32,000 nt of DNA from positions 1-32,000 of the forward strand of contig JAWOFX010000052.1 in NCBI GenBank assembly GCA_046497275.1, written 5' to 3'. The position numbers were made by a program, and so were the translations under genes. Below are positions 24,555 to 29,270 of this stretch, piece after piece (the first letter of the stretch is position 1; each line of letters starts with the position of its first letter). The notes beneath the pieces are model-generated. The model was given only the letters and a program-made list of their open reading frames with translations, ran no database searches and was not told the DNA's origin. The stretch is from Promethearchaeia archaeon. GTDB lineage: Archaea > Asgardarchaeota > Lokiarchaeia > Sigyniarchaeales > SOKP01.

Positions 24555-25004
24555 TTATATTGGATTAAAATATTCTATATCTGTAATTTTTTTCTGTCTT
24601 CTATCCTTAAACACTGCTTCTACCCTCATCCCTTCTTTTAGCTTCTTTGGATTGCCTTCATTGATTATATGAACAAATCCAGTATCAGCACCATCTAGCT
24701 TTATTATTCCATATCCAAAAGGAGGCTTTAAAGGCATCACATCAGTTGAATGGGTAACAACGGTAAATCCCTCAACAGTTCCTTGATTTCCTACTTCAAC
24801 CCATTCTTCCATCTTTTCAAAGCATTTAAAACAGACCATCTTTGGAGGAACGTAGACCTGCCCACATTTAGGACATTTTACTCCCATAATTTTATTATTT
24901 CTACCGATTTCTTCTAAAAATTTTTCAACGTAATCGCCTGCAGTGTGTTTATAGGGTACTTTAATTCTTCCTCGATAAATCTTTTTCTCTTTATCATCAC
25001 TCAT
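24555..25004 (-). CDS. DUF35 Zn-ribbon/OB-fold protein
   Basis: GVKCPKCG...PPKMVCFKC; SD GAGGTGA supports ATG 25004. Confidence 0.9.
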   Translation of the reverse strand: MSDDKEKKIYRGRIKVPYKHTAGDYVEKFLEEIGRNNKIMGVKCPKCGQVYVPPKMVCFKCFEKMEEWVEVGNQGTVEGFTVVTHSTDVMPLKPPFGYGIIKLDGADTGFVHIINEGNPKKLKEGMRVEAVFKDRRQKKITDIEYFNPI

Positions 25005-25019
25005 AATTTTCACCTCTTT

Positions 25020-25505
25020 TTATTCCTCCTCTATGATTTCAAAATACGGGATATCACCTAAATTTCCCTCCATTTCATCCTTAAACACCGCTTTGACTCT
25101 CTGTCCTATTTTCATCTTTTCATGGTCTTTTTCATTGATGAAATGCATAGTATATGTTTCGGCACCATCTAATTGGAATAACCCATAACCATAAGGAAAA
25201 GGTCTCATCCCACCAGTAGCAGGATCGACGAAGGGATAATTAACAACCGTAAAACCCACCAAAGTTCCAACTGGTGGAACCTCGACCATATCATCTACAG
25301 TCATTTTAACTATACATTCCGCACAAACACCTCTTGGAGGAAAATGTACTTTTCCGCATTCAGGACATTTAGTTCCAAGTAATTTTCGTTCTTTCTTCAA
25401 CGTTTCGAAGAATTTCACAGATACTTTTCCTATCGCATATTTGTAAGGAAGGTCAGTCTTCCATCTTATTTCGAAAGGTTTTTCTTTTTGATCTTTTTTT
25501 CCCAT
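25020..25505 (-). CDS. DUF35 Zn-ribbon/OB-fold protein
   Basis: GTKCPECG...PPRGVCAEC; SD GAGGTGA supports ATG 25505. Confidence 0.9.
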   Translation of the reverse strand: MGKKDQKEKPFEIRWKTDLPYKYAIGKVSVKFFETLKKERKLLGTKCPECGKVHFPPRGVCAECIVKMTVDDMVEVPPVGTLVGFTVVNYPFVDPATGGMRPFPYGYGLFQLDGAETYTMHFINEKDHEKMKIGQRVKAVFKDEMEGNLGDIPYFEIIEEE

Positions 25506-25513
25506 TTTTTTAA

Positions 25514-26707
25514 TCACCTCGGTGGTTCATTTCCAAAAATAGCTAATTCTGTCCATAAACTGCCTCCAAATCCCATAGCAAGTGCCCTTTCTACATCTGG
25601 GACTTGACGTTTCTCTCCTCGCCCCATTATTTGGATAGCTGCCTCAGCAAATCTTACAAGGGCAGTTGCACCAATTGGATTTGTACTTAATACACCCCCA
25701 GAAGGATTCACAGGTAATTCCCCTCCCATCTGAGTGATTCCTTCTCGTAAGATCTCACCGCCTTTTCCTGGTTCCGCAAACCCTAATGCTTCAGTCCAAG
25801 AAAGCTCCGCCCAAGAAGTTGGTTCATAAACTTCCGCAACATCCAGATCTTTTATAGGATCTTTAATTCCGGCTTTTTTATAGGCTTTTTTCGACGCAAT
25901 TGTTGCGGTTGGAAGATCATACATTTTATCATCGCATCCAAATGTGTAATAATGAGCAGTTGCTACAGAATGAAACCATGCTGGATTATCTCGTATTTTT
26001 TTTGCTTCTTTTTCATTAGCATATATAACAGCACATGCACCTTCACTTTGAGGGCAACAATCATGAAGTCGTAGAGGATAAGATATTGTCTGAGAACTCA
26101 TCACATAATCTAAAGTTATATTAGGCATCTGAAGATGCGCAAATGGGTTGTTTGCCGCATTACTTCGATTTTTAACGGTCACCATAGCAGCGGTTTCAGG
26201 ACTCACATTATATTCATTCATATACATATTTGCCATAAGAGCCAATGGTCCGAGAGCTCCAGCAAGAGAAGGGCGCTCCCATACCGGATCAAACGCTGTT
26301 ATAATCCCAGTTGTCGCACCCCCTTCATTTAATTTTTCCCACCCGACAACTAATACTTTATCATAGACCCCCGAGGCTACATTATAATAACCTGAGATCC
26401 CTAAAGAGCTGCCGGTCGTACCGCCAGTCGCAATCTTAACCACAGGTTTCATATAACCCGGAGCCGCATCAATTCCACACCACATTTCAGAGAAATTAAT
26501 TCCTTCGAAATGATCCATTTAGTCTTTAATATTGAAATAATATTAAATATTACCTATGAGGATGGCATCGATATCATTGGGCTCGAGTTGAGCATCATCT
26601 AAAGCCATCTTTACTGCCTCATAAATCATTTCTGGGATATTCACATCTCTTCTTTTACTTCTAAATTTAGTTTGGCCGATTCCAACTATACCAACGTTCT
26701 CCGGCAT
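25514..26707 (-). CDS. Ltp3-like thiolase-fold protein, interrupted: join(26707..26549, 26518..25514), 387 aa if spliced
   Basis: Exon 1 (absent from ORF track): MPENVGIVGIGQTKFRSKRRDVNIPEMIYEAVKMALDDAQLEPNDIDAILIGN (53 aa), with SD GGAGGTGA and TAATG overlap with the upstream gene; exon 2: MDHFEG...NPSGGVLSTNPIGATALVRFAEAAIQIMG. Confidence 0.85.
26519..26548 (-). other. Candidate 30-nt bulge-helix-bulge mRNA intron
   Basis: ATTTAATATTATTTCAATATTAAAGACTAA; two in-frame TAA; 9-bp inner stem; 3-nt bulges AUA and AAA; removal gives GGT AAT ATG GAT (G-N-M-D). Confidence 0.7.
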
Positions 26708-27855
26708 TATTTTTCACCTCCAAATATTAGTACACAATTACCTTGCGAACATATTCCATTCATTCCATTCGCAAGTCCGAGTTTGGCATCTGAAATTTGA
26801 TGCTTTTCAGCTTTTCCCATTAATTGTAATGCTACTTCCGCTACACGTATTAACCCATTTGCCATCGTAGGATTACTACAAAGAACTCCGCCTGAAGGAT
26901 TTACCGGAATAGATCCGTCCATTTCGGTTTCACCGCTGTTAATAAAGTTTCCCCCTTCACCTTTTTCACAAAAACCTAATGCTTCATAACTCATTAACTC
27001 GTGTGCCGAAAATGCATCATATACTTCCGCCACATCTAAATCATTCACTGGATCTGATATGCCTGCCATTTTATAAGCCTCTTTTGCGGCACCTTCCAAT
27101 CCAACTAAATCCGTCATTGTCCTATGCCCTAAATAATACGCATCAGTACAACTTGCATATCCTTTTAGCCATACGGGGGTATCTGTTAATTCTTTTGCTT
27201 TTGCTTCATTCGCTAGCAGCATTGCCACAGCTCCGTCCGAGAAAGGTGGAAAATCTAATTCTCTTAGAGGATATGCTAACATTGGTGAATGTAAAACATC
27301 TTCCATGGTGATCTCTTTTTGAAGATGAGCATAAGGATTTGATACACCATTCTTTCGGTTTTTTACTACCACTTTTGCCGCTTGCTCATCAGAAATTCCA
27401 TATTTTGTCATATACATATTTGCCATTAGCCCAGCGGCAGAGATTTGGTCTAAACCAAGATGCCTCTGATAAAATGGGTCGAAAATGCTGTTGTTTATGA
27501 GATATTGGTCACCTTCAGACGATTTCTGATGAGATACAACGAGTACCGTATCGTATTCACCGGATAACACCCGCATAGCACCATACGCATATGCAAAAGC
27601 TCCATCCCCTGATACTCTCGATTCAGCCTTCCGAACAGATCCTACTGCATCTTGGATTGCCATATTTGCGATTGTACGACCATCATTAAAATCGTTAGAA
27701 CTGGTAATAACACATCCAACATCATCATTTGTTATATTCAGCTCATCATGTAGTTTCTTTACCACTTCAAATACGAGTTCCATTATAGTTAAATCAATTT
27801 TTTCCTGTTCATACTTCGTCTGTGCGACACCACAAATTGCTACTTTACCATCCAT
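26707..27855 (-). CDS. Ltp4-like thiolase-fold protein lacking the nucleophile Cys
   Basis: ESRVSGDGAFAYAYG..RVLSGEYDTVLV, FDPFY, FSDGAVA, NPSGGVLCSNPTMANGLIR; ATG 27855 after GAAGTGA. Confidence 0.85.
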   Translation of the reverse strand: MDGKVAICGVAQTKYEQEKIDLTIMELVFEVVKKLHDELNITNDDVGCVITSSNDFNDGRTIANMAIQDAVGSVRKAESRVSGDGAFAYAYGAMRVLSGEYDTVLVVSHQKSSEGDQYLINNSIFDPFYQRHLGLDQISAAGLMANMYMTKYGISDEQAAKVVVKNRKNGVSNPYAHLQKEITMEDVLHSPMLAYPLRELDFPPFSDGAVAMLLANEAKAKELTDTPVWLKGYASCTDAYYLGHRTMTDLVGLEGAAKEAYKMAGISDPVNDLDVAEVYDAFSAHELMSYEALGFCEKGEGGNFINSGETEMDGSIPVNPSGGVLCSNPTMANGLIRVAEVALQLMGKAEKHQISDAKLGLANGMNGICSQGNCVLIFGGEK

Positions 27856-28049
27856 TAGTATCACTTCTAATATATAATTTTTTTATGGTATTTTATTTTT
27901 AATTGGAATTTATATTAAATAATTTAATATACAATTCAGAAATATTTAAAGATTTCATCCAGATTTAATTTAAATTTGATCATATTCAATACAACACTTT
28001 CTAAATTACAAAAAAACCTTGATTACACCCCGAAATCGCATTAAACAGA

Positions 28050-28271: not shown

Positions 28272-29270
28272 TTATCTTTCTTTCATATATCTTCTTTTCC
28301 TTTCTAAACTATCTGGATAACTATCAAGCATTTTATTAAAAACCCTCGCTCCTAAGCTCAATCCCCATACTGAACCATAATTTGATTCTCTATATCGGAT
28401 TTCATTAAAAATCTTAAATTTATCCTTGATATCTTTTAAAAAACCATAAGAACCAGACCAAAGCCTACTTGTTCCCGCCTCTCCATCACCATCAAAACAA
28501 CCCATTAAAAATGGATAATAATAACTCTTATCTGGAAATGATGGTAATCTAATTAAATTTGATTTATTAGGAACAACACCCCAAGATATTAAATCATTGG
28601 CCATCCGCTGATTTGCAAAATGTATCCGAAAATATTTCACTAGCACCCGTCTACCACCATGTTTTTGCCATTCTTCGTGTATATGCTTAAGTTCTTGATT
28701 TAAACTTAATAAATTTATAAATTTATCAATTAATTCATCATCGTCAATTTTTGTTTTCAAACCGATTCTATAATAGCTTCTATAATCATCTTTTTCTTCG
28801 ACTAAATAACCATCTGAATACATAATACCTAATACATATAGTTGATCATTAGTGGTAATTATATCAAAAAAATCAGATTTTAAATCAGGATGAAAAAGTT
28901 TAGATCTCGCCTCGGATCTAATCAAATAGTGTTCAGTCAAATATTTTTCATAATGATTGAATGCATCTAAAAGATCTCGACTTATATTACCACATTTATT
29001 ACATATATATCTTGTAACTTTATTTTTAATAGTTGAATAAGCATCTTCTGTGATATAACCTTCTTTTCCAGATTTAATCCTATGATATTTTTTGGTAATA
29101 TAGTTATCGTGCATGCTTAAGAATTTAGATAATTCATCATTAGTGATTGAAATATTATGGACTCTTTCTAATTCTCTTCGAATCGCTTCTAGTAATTTGT
29201 AAGCAGAATTATTTTTCAGAATTTCATAATTTCCTCTTGGTCTACCACCACGATTTTTACTTTTTCGCAT
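28272..29270 (-). CDS. Freestanding two-motif LAGLIDADG homing endonuclease with N-terminal extension
   Basis: YVLGIMYSDG and FLMGCFDGDG motifs, GVVPNKS linker; no intein or host-gene sequence visible. Confidence 0.85.
   Translation of the reverse strand: MRKSKNRGGRPRGNYEILKNNSAYKLLEAIRRELERVHNISITNDELSKFLSMHDNYITKKYHRIKSGKEGYITEDAYSTIKNKVTRYICNKCGNISRDLLDAFNHYEKYLTEHYLIRSEARSKLFHPDLKSDFFDIITTNDQLYVLGIMYSDGYLVEEKDDYRSYYRIGLKTKIDDDELIDKFINLLSLNQELKHIHEEWQKHGGRRVLVKYFRIHFANQRMANDLISWGVVPNKSNLIRLPSFPDKSYYYPFLMGCFDGDGEAGTSRLWSGSYGFLKDIKDKFKIFNEIRYRESNYGSVWGLSLGARVFNKMLDSYPDSLERKRRYMKER

What the first reader, a model, noticed from the sequence alone, without database searches (positions are those of the whole stretch)
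26519..26548. Candidate BHB-type mRNA mini-intron in a metabolic (Ltp3-like) gene
Seen: on the minus strand the gene reads ...ATA GGT AAT [ATT TAA TAT TAT TTC AAT ATT AAA GAC TAA] ATG GAT CAT..., an exact 30-nt in-frame insert with two stops and only 3 G/C. As RNA it reads GGUA-AUA-UUUAAUAUU-AUUUC-AAUAUUAAA-GACU-AAA-UGGA. This gives a perfect 9-bp inner stem, a 3-nt bulge (AUA), a central helix GGUA/GACU (G-U, G-C, U-A plus an A.G mismatch), a second 3-nt bulge (AAA) and a short, irregular outer helix. Established: archaeal splicing endonuclease cuts after the second nucleotide of each 3-nt bulge of a BHB, and cbf5 is the classic archaeal protein-gene intron. Those cut positions remove exactly 26548-26519 and give a 387-aa ORF, matching the ~382-aa neighbouring paralogue. 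From recall, Ltp3 homologues read GKAPDFFEG here with no 10-aa insert. Inference: a spliced mRNA intron in a catabolic gene of an Asgard-like archaeon, possibly making expression depend on splicing.
Basis: partly seen in the sequence, partly recalled or inferred. Interest (0 to 1): 0.92.

Follow-up and report, generated by a model that had tools for sequence, protein, structure and literature searches.

The report
tRNA-type mini-intron in Asgard thiolase gene
A 30-base hairpin carrying stop codons that splits a thiolase-family gene of a Lokiarchaeon (Asgard archaeon) is very probably a real intron cut out of the messenger RNA by the tRNA-splicing enzymes, a kind of intron that papers I could search report inside an archaeal coding sequence only for cbf5.

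Summary
On the minus strand, 26548..26519 is a 30-nt in-frame insert with two TAA stops. It lies between a 53-codon exon 1 and a 334-codon exon 2 of a thiolase-family gene.

The intron reading is strongly supported by comparison with other genomes; no RNA data could be reached. An insert of exactly 30 nt sits at the same site in 21 distinct Promethearchaeota sequences from independent assemblies. About 70 other orthologues, one 94.8% identical in DNA, read ...ILIGN|MDHFEG... without a gap, which is the predicted splice product.

RNAalifold predicts on its own a 4-bp exon-intron helix, a 3-nt bulge and a 9-bp intron stem. 96% of cells pair, against 32-40% in shifted controls, and five pairs show compensatory changes. 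Intron-bearing genes use only glycine codons that can pair with the intron. The intron is 80% conserved where third codon positions are 49%. Exon 1 is intact and under purifying selection everywhere.

There is no conserved outer helix, so the motif is the relaxed HBh' type. The genome encodes two EndA paralogues, one most like the catalytic subunits of the two-subunit crenarchaeal enzymes, and two RtcB ligases. It also carries similar 29-32-nt inserts in rpoA', a Ras-like GTPase and other genes.

This scan has already noted the same class in this genome and other Asgard genomes. Splicing itself is not shown.

The parts
26549..26707 (-). Exon 1 of the thiolase-family gene: ATG at 26707, 53 codons ending ...ILIGN.
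   Evidence: Pfam Thiolase_N positions 1-53. It is intact in all 26 intron-bearing loci. Between intron-bearing genes pN is 0.074 and pS is 0.76.
26715..26721 (-). Shine-Dalgarno-like GGAGGTG 7 nt upstream of the exon 1 ATG. It lies inside the last codons of the upstream paralogue, whose TAA stop overlaps the ATG.
   Evidence: Read directly. No comparable motif precedes the ATG of exon 2.
26551..26554 (-). 5' strand of the central BHB helix H (GGUA; Gly codon plus the first base of the Asn codon). This strand is exon sequence.
   Evidence: It pairs with 26521-26524. Alignment columns 15-18 pair with 45-48, with 96.4% of cells paired. Column 17/46 covaries as UA 10, UG 8, CG 3.
26548..26550 (-). 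5' three-nucleotide bulge A-U|A. The predicted cut falls between 26549 and 26548.
   Evidence: The geometry follows the canonical BHB rule of a cut after the second bulge nucleotide. The junction equals that of intron-less orthologues. It is unpaired in the RNAalifold consensus.
26519..26548 (-). The 30-nt intron.
   Evidence: It is always 30 nt in the 21 distinct relatives. Pairwise identity is 80%, against 49% at third codon positions of the same genes.
26539..26547 (-). Inner helix h', 5' strand (UUUAAUAUU).
   Evidence: It forms 9 bp with 26525-26533. 96.3% of cells are paired and 4 pairs show changes on both sides.
26534..26538 (-). Five-nucleotide loop (AUUUC).
   Evidence: The last two loop bases, UC, are invariant in 21 sequences.
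26525..26533 (-). Inner helix h', 3' strand (AAUAUUAAA).
26521..26524 (-). 3' strand of the central helix H (GACU). This strand is intron sequence. The G at 26524 makes the A.G mismatch.
   Evidence: 19 of 21 relatives have U here, giving 4 bp. Only the window and L093 have G.
26518..26520 (-). 3' splice-site triplet A-A|A. The predicted cut falls between 26519 and 26518. It is a true bulge only if the weak outer pairs A26555-U26517 and U26556-G26516 form.
   Evidence: The outer helix is neither predicted nor conserved: column 14 is A in 13 sequences and T in 8.
25514..26518 (-). Exon 2: 334 codons starting MDHFEG, plus the stop codon. The ATG is the conserved Met of the GNMDHFEG motif, not a separate start.
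   Evidence: Pfam Thiolase_C_1.
26707..27864 (-). Upstream uninterrupted thiolase-family paralogue in the same operon. It reads ...VITSSNDFNDG... at the homologous site.
24555..25517 (-). Two downstream DUF35/ChsH2-type genes (zinc ribbon plus OB fold) completing the operon.
   Evidence: The same gene order is found in related loci.

Best explanation
The 30 nt at 26548..26519 (minus strand) are a bulge-helix-bulge intron of the relaxed HBh' type inside the coding sequence of a thiolase-family gene of a Promethearchaeota (Lokiarchaeia) genome.

Proposed mechanism:
1. In the pre-mRNA, the last exon bases GGUA pair with intron bases 25-28. A 9-bp intron hairpin stacks next to this helix.
2. This leaves A-U|A and A-A|A unpaired on opposite strands.
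3. The two-subunit splicing endonuclease EndA cuts after the second nucleotide of each triplet.
4. RtcB joins the exons and probably circularises the intron.
5. The result is an mRNA for a 387-aa protein reading ...ILIGN-MDHFEG....
6. Unspliced RNA would yield only a 54-aa peptide, because the second intron codon is a stop.

What is shown: the anatomy, its conservation and covariation, the exact match of the predicted junction to intron-less orthologues, selection on both exons and on the intron, and the presence of the enzymes. What is inferred: that cleavage and ligation actually happen, and when.
For: 1. The junction prediction is met. Intron-less orthologues read ...DAILIGNMDHFEG... with no gap. 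One of them is 99% identical in protein and 94.8% in DNA (P0001/L012).

2. The insert recurs. An insert of exactly 30 nt sits at the identical site in 21 distinct sequences from NCBI MAGs and from JGI and ENA metagenomes built with different assemblers. Among 161 species-representative genomes of the class, 12 genomes in 7 genera have it and 45 have the intron-less form. Both forms occur in the window's own genus.

3. The structure is conserved. RNAalifold predicts H (4 bp), a 3-nt bulge and h' (9 bp) with no input from me. 96.3% of cells pair, against 32-40% when partners are slid. Five pairs change on both sides, and the covariation score exceeds all 500 shuffles.

4. The exon is constrained by the RNA. 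The glycine codon before the junction is GGT or GGC (once GAT) in 20 of 20 intron-bearing genes, against 20 of 62 intron-less ones (Fisher 2e-8, not corrected for relatedness). All three GGC genes have the compensating G in the intron.

5. Selection is visible. Exon 1 is open and conserved in all 26 intron-bearing loci (pN 0.074, pS 0.76), the same as in intron-less genes. The intron is 80% identical pairwise where third codon positions are 49%. The peptide the insert would encode is not conserved (I*YYFNIKD*, I*RRIDDRY*, I*YHIDIKC*...).

6. The machinery is present. There are two EndA paralogues. The one on C46 matches the catalytic subunits of crenarchaeal heterotetramers end to end (3p1z_B, E 3e-38). 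There are also two RtcB genes. Asgard EndA is reported as the (alpha-beta)2 type with the L1 loop that confers broad specificity, and this type cuts HBh' motifs (PMC5829648).

7. The same genome has similar inserts elsewhere. A 30-nt insert with a TAA lies inside the GHFGH|IELARP motif of the otherwise intact RNA polymerase A' gene. A 29-nt frameshifting insert splits a Ras-family GTPase, whose two ORFs match Pfam Ras positions 1-57 and 60-161. Others are in a thymidine-phosphorylase-like gene, an ABC ATPase, a DeoC/LsrF aldolase and a UbiA-type gene.

8. TAA is an ordinary stop here: the upstream paralogue ends on one.
Against: No RNA-level evidence was obtainable. No protein in the searched collection equals the window's own spliced product.

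The window's own copy has only 3 of 4 central pairs (A.G), and its single-sequence fold is not better than shuffles (z -0.82).

The outer helix is absent, so the 3' site is not a true bulge. Relaxed motifs are permissive in general (bioRxiv 10.64898/2026.10.13.758758).

Exon 2 happens to start with ATG, so separate translation cannot be excluded from sequence alone.

My genome-wide structural scan was no richer in hits than a decoy pairing rule. The other introns therefore rest on motif and Pfam checks of individual cases, not on scan statistics.
Confidence: 0.88

Rival explanations
1. A split gene. The 54-aa N-terminal piece and the 334-aa C-terminal piece are translated separately and assemble into a thiolase fold. 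The conserved hairpin serves translational coupling or restart.
For: Exon 2 begins with ATG, and public annotation calls two ORFs. The first stop lies only 24 nt before that ATG in all relatives.
Against: The ATG is the conserved internal Met of GNMDHFEG in every intron-less orthologue. No Shine-Dalgarno-like motif precedes it, whereas exon 1 has GGAGGTG. A coupling element would not need a fixed 30 nt, a helix between the exon's Gly codon and the insert with covariation, or 3-nt unpaired triplets at exactly the boundaries of the insert. Inserts of the same architecture elsewhere in this genome shift the frame or are followed by exons without a start codon (rpoA' exon 2 starts IELARP; 29-nt insert in the Ras GTPase).
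Confidence: 0.05
2. A disabled gene. The insert is a neutral or mildly harmful insertion that has inactivated this copy, and the upstream paralogue covers the function.
For: There are two in-frame stops and a paralogue next door. The window's central helix carries a mismatch.
Against: Both exons are intact and under strong purifying selection in all intron-bearing lineages, although synonymous sites are saturated. The insert itself is conserved well above third-codon positions. The window and L093 share the A.G variant yet differ by 7.9% in DNA with about 98% protein identity.
Confidence: 0.03
3. Recoding at the ribosome. This could be translational bypassing (hopping) over the 30 nt, or read-through of the stops giving a 397-aa protein.
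For: A stable hairpin directly after a stop codon recalls phage T4 gene 60 (from my own knowledge).
Against: There are no matching take-off and landing codons (AAU before the gap, UAA before the landing site). The insert's peptide is not conserved while its pairing is. TAA is a normal stop in the adjacent gene. Inserts of 29, 31 and 32 nt in other genes of the genome cannot be read through.
Confidence: 0.02
4. An assembly or sequencing artefact, or a DNA-level mobile element that merely happens to fold.
For: The insert is AT-rich, palindromic and short. It is unique in the genome.
Against: It was recovered in more than 20 independent assemblies from different laboratories and assemblers, with lineage-specific substitutions. 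It has no copies elsewhere, no terminal repeats beyond the hairpin and no target duplication.
Confidence: 0.01

Closest known systems
BHB intron in the cbf5 (pseudouridine synthase) pre-mRNA of Crenarchaeota (Watanabe 2002; Yoshinari 2006; Yokobori 2009, PMC2738675)
   Same: It is a short intron inside a protein-coding sequence. It has BHB geometry, often of the relaxed type. It is linked to a heterotetrameric EndA with broad specificity. Its presence and absence among relatives is patchy, implying gain and loss.
   Different: The phylum differs (Promethearchaeota/Asgard, not Crenarchaeota) and so does the gene (a metabolic thiolase-family gene, not an RNA-modification gene). The length here is a stereotyped 30 nt. 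It is one of several such inserts in the same genome, including one in rpoA'. The cbf5 intron has been shown to be spliced in vivo and in vitro; this one has not.
Non-canonical tRNA introns of Asgard archaea and Thermoproteales (Marck and Grosjean 2003; PMC5829648; bioRxiv 10.64898/2026.10.13.758758; PMC11291895)
   Same: The recognition motif is the same (H plus bulges plus a flanking helix) and so, presumably, are the enzymes. Sizes are similar: ARAGORN finds 28-31-nt anticodon-loop introns in this genome. Relatives show frequent gain and loss.
   Different: The host RNA is an mRNA that ribosomes must read. The exon half of the motif is therefore constrained by the genetic code; here it fixes the Gly codon to GGY. 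There is no tRNA body to help recognition.
BHB intron in the 5' UTR of Haloferax volcanii HVO_1309 mRNA (PMC7714728)
   Same: It is an mRNA substrate of the archaeal splicing endonuclease.
   Different: That intron lies in an untranslated leader, so the reading frame is not at stake. Haloferax has the homodimeric alpha'2 enzyme, and that motif is canonical.
HAC1/XBP1 mRNA splicing in eukaryotes (IRE1 cleavage, RtcB or Trl1 ligation; from my own knowledge)
   Same: It is non-spliceosomal, protein-catalysed excision of a short intron from a coding mRNA, and the exons are joined by a tRNA ligase.
   Different: The nuclease is IRE1 and it recognises two stem-loops, not a BHB. That system is a regulated stress switch; no regulation is shown here.

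Membership tests
Archaeal BHB intron (EndA substrate) | Central helix of 4 bp formed between the 5' exon and the 3' end of the intron. | tested here: met
   Columns 15-18 pair with 45-48, with 96.4% of cells paired. 19 of 21 orthologues have 4 bp. The window has 3 bp plus A.G.
Archaeal BHB intron (EndA substrate) | Two 3-nt bulges on opposite strands, 4 bp apart, each holding a splice site after its second nucleotide. | tested here: inconclusive
   The 5' bulge (A-U|A) is clean and conserved. The 3' triplet (A-A|A) is followed by no conserved helix, so it is unpaired sequence rather than a closed bulge. This matches the published relaxed class HBh', not the strict hBHBh'.
Archaeal BHB intron (EndA substrate) | At least one flanking helix (h or h'). 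| tested here: met
   h' has 9 bp, 96.3% of cells paired and 4 pairs with compensatory changes. The outer helix h is not conserved.
Archaeal BHB intron (EndA substrate) | Removal at the predicted sites restores the functional sequence. | tested here: met
   The predicted product ...ILIGNMDHFEG... equals the sequence of about 70 intron-less orthologues. The intron-less orthologue aligns end to end with NCBIfam PRK08313, positions 3-386 against 4-387 of 389.
Archaeal BHB intron (EndA substrate) | The host encodes an EndA able to cut relaxed motifs outside a tRNA body ((alpha-beta)2 with the L1/Crenarchaea-specific loop, or epsilon2). | tested here: inconclusive
   There are two EndA paralogues of 201 and 200 aa. 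One aligns over its full length with the catalytic alpha subunits of the A. pernix, S. tokodaii and P. aerophilum enzymes. [quoted passage not shown] I did not verify the loop residues or the heteromer.
Archaeal BHB intron (EndA substrate) | A 3'-phosphate RNA ligase (RtcB) to join the exons. | tested here: met
   Two full-length RtcB genes, E 2e-171 and 7e-166.
Archaeal BHB intron (EndA substrate) | Spliced RNA and excised (circular) intron observed. | not testable with these tools
   No transcript data were available. No database protein equals the window's spliced product.
Group I / group II self-splicing intron, or intein | A ribozyme core of hundreds of nt (group I or II), or an in-frame protein-splicing domain without stops (intein). 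| tested here: not met
   The insert is 30 nt long and has two in-frame stops.

The most novel reading that the evidence does not exclude
The thiolase intron is one member of a population of stereotyped 29-32-nt BHB mini-introns. These interrupt many protein-coding genes of Lokiarchaeia, including the essential RNA polymerase A' subunit, and they are gained and lost quickly: both states occur within one genus, and at least 16 changes are needed on the gene tree. If so, splicing of mRNA by the tRNA-splicing machinery would be a routine, obligatory step of gene expression in the closest prokaryotic relatives of eukaryotes. That would require some way of keeping ribosomes off unspliced RNA; the conserved stop at intron codon 2 may serve this purpose.
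Probability: 0.72. Interest if true: 0.9.

Novelty: new member of a known kind. Interest (0 to 1): 0.8.

Why it matters
In the papers I could search, a BHB intron inside an archaeal coding sequence is documented only for cbf5 of Crenarchaeota. PMC7714728 says so explicitly, adding one 5'-UTR case. I found no report for Asgard mRNAs.

This case adds a metabolic gene in Asgard archaea, with unusually good comparative support. It also sits in a genome where an essential gene, rpoA', carries the same kind of insert.

The practical consequences are these:
- Gene callers split or truncate such genes. Here the public annotation has a 54-aa and a 334-aa ORF, so Asgard proteomes and metabolic reconstructions are slightly wrong.
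- It offers a defined 70-nt substrate for testing what an Asgard EndA recognises outside a tRNA.
- It bears on how interrupted protein genes can be tolerated where transcription and translation are coupled, a question tied to the origin of eukaryotic gene structure.
- The within-genus presence and absence gives material for studying how such introns are precisely lost or gained.

Tried and rejected
- **Single-sequence folding.** It was not significant (z -0.82), and the MFE chose a UAG/CUA helix instead of GGUA/GACU. It is uninformative in a 30% GC genome, so I relied on comparative data instead.
- **Genome-wide BHB plus split-ORF scan.** The first version timed out. The vectorised version gave 3136 hits against 4270 under a decoy pairing rule. 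At every stringency the decoy count was equal to or higher than the real count or within two hits of it (for example 29-31 nt, stem of at least 9, H of at least 3: 10 real, 9 decoy). The scan therefore cannot count introns. Adjacent same-strand genes and A/T-rich mirror repeats swamp it. I used it only to pick cases that I then checked by motif and Pfam contiguity.
- **Search for a copy of the 30 nt elsewhere in the genome.** There is none, so it is not a repeat family at the sequence level. The introns in other genes share architecture but no sequence.
- **tRNA genes in the window.** None were found.
- **Search for RNA-derived evidence.** The members of the 90% cluster include three further 387-aa proteins besides P0001. 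All differ from the window's exons at several residues. The nearest, P0001, sits on a contig with opposite-strand genes at both ends and differs by 5% in DNA, so it is a genomic intron-less allele, not a cDNA.
- **LAGLIDADG reading of ORF 28272..29270.** Pfam gives only E 0.12 and NCBIfam gives nothing. I make no claim.
- **LsrF read-through translation.** I gave the wrong frame; this was corrected. Locus L182 was fetched with reverse-strand coordinates by mistake and was not used.
- **Exon 2 dN/dS.** The value is probably inflated by small C-terminal length differences in my gap-free comparison. I do not rely on it.
Full report
**1. What is in the sequence**

On the minus strand the gene reads ...ATC CTC ATA GGT AAT | ATT TAA TAT TAT TTC AAT ATT AAA GAC TAA | ATG GAT CAT TTC GAA GGA.... 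The middle block is 26548..26519. It is 30 nt, in frame, has two TAA codons and 3 G/C.

ORF listing and straight translation give a 54-aa ORF (26707..26543) and a 334-aa ORF (26518..25514) in the same frame. The first matches Pfam Thiolase_N positions 1-53 and the second matches Thiolase_C_1.

The gene lies in an operon. Upstream is an uninterrupted thiolase-family paralogue (27864..26707). Downstream are two DUF35/ChsH2-type genes (25517..24555). The 30 nt occur nowhere else in the 3.85-Mb, 98.9%-complete genome.

**2. Is it more than chance?**

Alone, the fold is unimpressive. The MFE of the 71-nt region has z = -0.82 against shuffles, and the MFE prefers a slightly different 3-bp helix.

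However, a 30-nt segment with at least 3 of 4 central pairs and a contiguous 9-bp stem in exact BHB register occurs at only 5e-5 of positions in this genome. Here its two ends coincide with the boundaries of an insert defined independently by orthologues (section 3). The placement is ambiguous by one A.

**3. Orthologues with and without the insert**

A protein search with exon 2 returned two kinds of close relatives. Some are full-length proteins of 387-394 aa. Others are 334-336 aa and begin exactly at MDHFEG.

The full-length ones read ...DAILIGNMDHFEGINF..., which is the product predicted by removing 26548..26519. Every truncated one has, on its contig, a 55-60-aa ORF ending 24 nt upstream. 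At the DNA level each has a 30-nt insert at the identical site.

Scans of species-representative genomes and of metagenomes, read with a script, gave the following:
- 26 insert-bearing loci (21 distinct sequences), all Promethearchaeota and all with exactly 30 nt;
- about 70 insert-free Promethearchaeota orthologues;
- no insert in Jordarchaeia/Freyarchaeota or in the roughly 52%-identical bacterial homologues.

They come from NCBI MAGs of several groups and from JGI and ENA assemblies made with different assemblers. An assembly artefact is therefore excluded.

Among 161 representative genomes of the class, 12 genomes in 7 genera carry the insert form and 45 carry the insert-free form. No genome carries both. 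Both forms occur in the window's own genus.

The nearest relative of the window's gene, L012, lacks the insert and is 94.8% identical in DNA. The next, L093, has it and is 92.1% identical.

**4. RNA structure**

I aligned 70 nt around the site from the 21 distinct insert-bearing genes. On this alignment RNAalifold predicts, without guidance:
- a 4-bp helix between exon columns 15-18 and intron columns 45-48;
- three unpaired nucleotides (19-21);
- a 9-bp hairpin (22-30 with 36-44) with a 5-nt loop;
- nothing else.

Counting pairs on that structure gives 96.3% of 273 cells paired, against 32-40% when the 3' partners are slid by 1-3 columns. Five pairs change on both sides, and the covariation score is above all 500 shuffles.

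The most telling pair joins the third base of the glycine codon to intron position 26. It is U-A in 10 sequences, U-G in 8 and C-G in 3.

Accordingly, all 20 distinct insert-bearing genes have a pyrimidine at that codon position (GGT 16, GGC 3, GAT 1). Insert-free genes use GGA 24, GGG 18, GGT 13 and GGC 7. Fisher's test gives 2e-8, not corrected for relatedness. So a synonymous site of the exon is constrained by pairing with the insert.

With the canonical rule of a cut after the second nucleotide of each 3-nt bulge, the cuts fall after U26549 and after A26519. These are exactly the insert boundaries.

There is no conserved outer helix. The base 5' of the central helix is A in 13 sequences and T in 8, opposite an invariant U. 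The motif is therefore the relaxed HBh' class.

The window and L093 have G instead of U at intron position 25, which gives an A.G mismatch. The other 19 have all four pairs. These two lineages have diverged by 7.9% in DNA while keeping about 98% protein identity, so the variant is evidently tolerated. The DeoC/LsrF-gene insert of the same genome has an A.G at the same place.

**5. Selection**

Exon 1 is open and conserved in all 26 insert-bearing loci. Among the 20 distinct genes, pN is 0.074 and pS is 0.76 (saturated). The equivalent region of 62 insert-free genes gives 0.064 and 0.67. These are not decaying pseudogenes.

The insert itself is 80% identical pairwise, while third codon positions of the same genes are 49% and first plus second positions are 88%. 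The insert is thus under selection as RNA. The peptide it would encode is not conserved.

The second intron codon is a stop in 21 of 21 sequences (TAA, TGA or TAG). In an AT-rich hairpin this may be partly a by-product of composition. It would, however, end translation of unspliced RNA at once.

**6. Evolution**

A gene tree of 95 orthologues needs at least 16 changes of insert state, and at least 9 are forced by well-supported branches. Basal Promethearchaeota and the Jord/Freyarchaeial outgroup have no insert.

The inserts are clearly homologous to one another. I therefore infer one gain followed by many precise losses, or spread between alleles by recombination. This is inference only.

**7. 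Machinery and context in the same genome**

The genome has two EndA paralogues. The 201-aa one aligns over its full length with the catalytic subunits of the heterotetrameric enzymes of Aeropyrum, Sulfolobus and Pyrobaculum (3p1z_B, E 3e-38). The 200-aa one is more distant. There are two RtcB genes.

Published work assigns Asgard archaea an (alpha-beta)2 EndA with the L1 loop. [quoted passage not shown]

ARAGORN finds only 26 tRNA genes in this nearly complete genome. Fourteen have anticodon-loop introns, several of 28-31 nt. This fits the reported heavy interruption of Asgard tRNA genes (PMC11291895; bioRxiv 10.64898/2026.10.13.758758).

Notes from earlier readers of this scan flagged similar 30-nt inserts in other genes of this genome. 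My own scan was statistically noisy. It independently picked up several, which I then checked:
- **rpoA'** has a 30-nt insert with a TAA inside GHFGH|IELARP. Read through, the 993-residue frame matches all five Rpb1 Pfam domains, with domain 1 continuous across the insert.
- **A Ras-family GTPase** is split by 29 nt. Its two ORFs match Ras profile positions 1-57 and 60-161.
- **A thymidine-phosphorylase-like gene** is split by 31 nt at KHST|GG.
- **An ABC ATPase** is split by 32 nt after the Walker B motif.
- **A DeoC/LsrF aldolase and a UbiA-type gene** are each split by 30 nt.

An essential single-copy gene carrying an in-frame stop, and frameshifting inserts in otherwise intact genes, are hard to explain unless such inserts are removed from RNA. 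This raises the prior for the thiolase case.

**8. Rivals**

- **Separate translation of two polypeptides.** This is the main alternative, because exon 2 starts with ATG. But that Met is the conserved internal residue of GNMDHFEG, no ribosome-binding motif precedes it, and the exon-intron helix with covariation has no role in that model.
- **Pseudogene.** Refuted by selection on both exons and on the insert.
- **Ribosomal bypass or read-through.** Disfavoured by the lack of matched codons, by normal use of TAA as a stop next door, and by the non-conserved insert peptide.
- **Artefact.** Excluded by recurrence in independent assemblies.

**9. Comparison with what is known, and novelty**

The closest known case is the cbf5 pre-mRNA intron of Crenarchaeota. 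It uses the same mechanism, often has relaxed motifs, is linked to a heterotetrameric EndA and is patchy among relatives (PMC2738675).

A 2020 study states that cbf5 is the only other BHB mRNA intron reported in archaea besides its own 5'-UTR case (PMC7714728). My searches found nothing on Asgard mRNA introns. The library lacks most subscription journals, so an existing report cannot be excluded.

Earlier follow-ups in this scan have described the same class in other Asgard genomes: RNase HII, Elf1, mevalonate kinase, leuS, and a Jordarchaeum gene said to have an RNA-derived contig lacking the insert. I did not test those.

The present intron is therefore a new member (new gene, new phylum) of a known kind. 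The wider pattern is the more novel part.

**10. Verdict**

The BHB-intron interpretation is supported at about 0.88. Actual splicing remains to be shown by RNA data or an enzyme assay.

Noticed in passing
G000 contig C83:1644-1673 (+) = L177:1644-1673: A 30-nt insert with an in-frame TAA lies inside the GHFGH|IELARP motif of the RNA polymerase A' gene. It has the same architecture as the thiolase insert: 1 + 9-bp stem + 5-nt loop + 9 + 4 + 2 nt, with central helix GGGC/GCCC. Read through, the frame matches all five Rpb1 Pfam domains.
   Followed up: partly
G000 C45:12870-12898 (+), L181: A 29-nt frameshifting insert splits a Ras-family small GTPase at WDIGGQ|QRF. The two ORFs match Pfam Ras positions 1-57 and 60-161.
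   Followed up: partly
G000 C171:12136-12166 (+), C59:8285-8316 (+), C98:30530-30559 (+), C111:36426-36455 (gene on minus strand): Further BHB-like inserts of 31, 32, 30 and 30 nt. They lie in a thymidine/AMP-phosphorylase-like gene (DKHST|GG), an ABC ATPase (LDEPTT|GVD), a DeoC/LsrF aldolase (IAGGK|KIPE) and a UbiA-type prenyltransferase (NDIYDVEIDK|INRPERP). They share architecture but not sequence with the thiolase intron.
   Followed up: partly
window 28272..29270 (-): A 332-aa ORF about 400 nt upstream of the thiolase operon contains two LAGLIDADG-like motifs (LGIMYSDGYL and LMGCFDGDGEAG). Pfam LAGLIDADG_3 reaches only E 0.12 and NCBIfam finds nothing. It may be a free-standing homing-endonuclease relative; no link to the intron is shown.
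   Followed up: partly
whole genome G000: ARAGORN finds only 26 tRNA genes in a 98.9%-complete genome. Fourteen have anticodon-loop introns, four of them 28-31 nt. Two calls have implausible 888- and 1980-nt 'introns', and two are 'tRNA-Stop' calls. Many tRNA genes are probably hidden by non-canonical introns.
   Followed up: no
window 25514..27864 (-): Both thiolase-family paralogues show no cysteine where I recall the thiolase nucleophile to be (...KIATGGTTGSSLG... and ...RVSGDGAFAYAYG...). They keep an HDC-type motif (LHDCCPQSEG) and sit next to two DUF35/ChsH2-type genes. This recalls Ltp2-ChsH2-type aldolase complexes rather than a classical thiolase. The comparison rests on reading and recall and was not tested.
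   Followed up: no
window 26543..26707 and 25514..26518 (-): Public collections (NCBI, Logan) hold this gene as two separate proteins of 54 and 334 aa (P0122, P0123). The same happens for relatives; for example TXT65334.1 is the 334-aa piece named 'Propanoyl-CoA acyltransferase'. The interruption is thus silently mis-annotated.
   Followed up: yes
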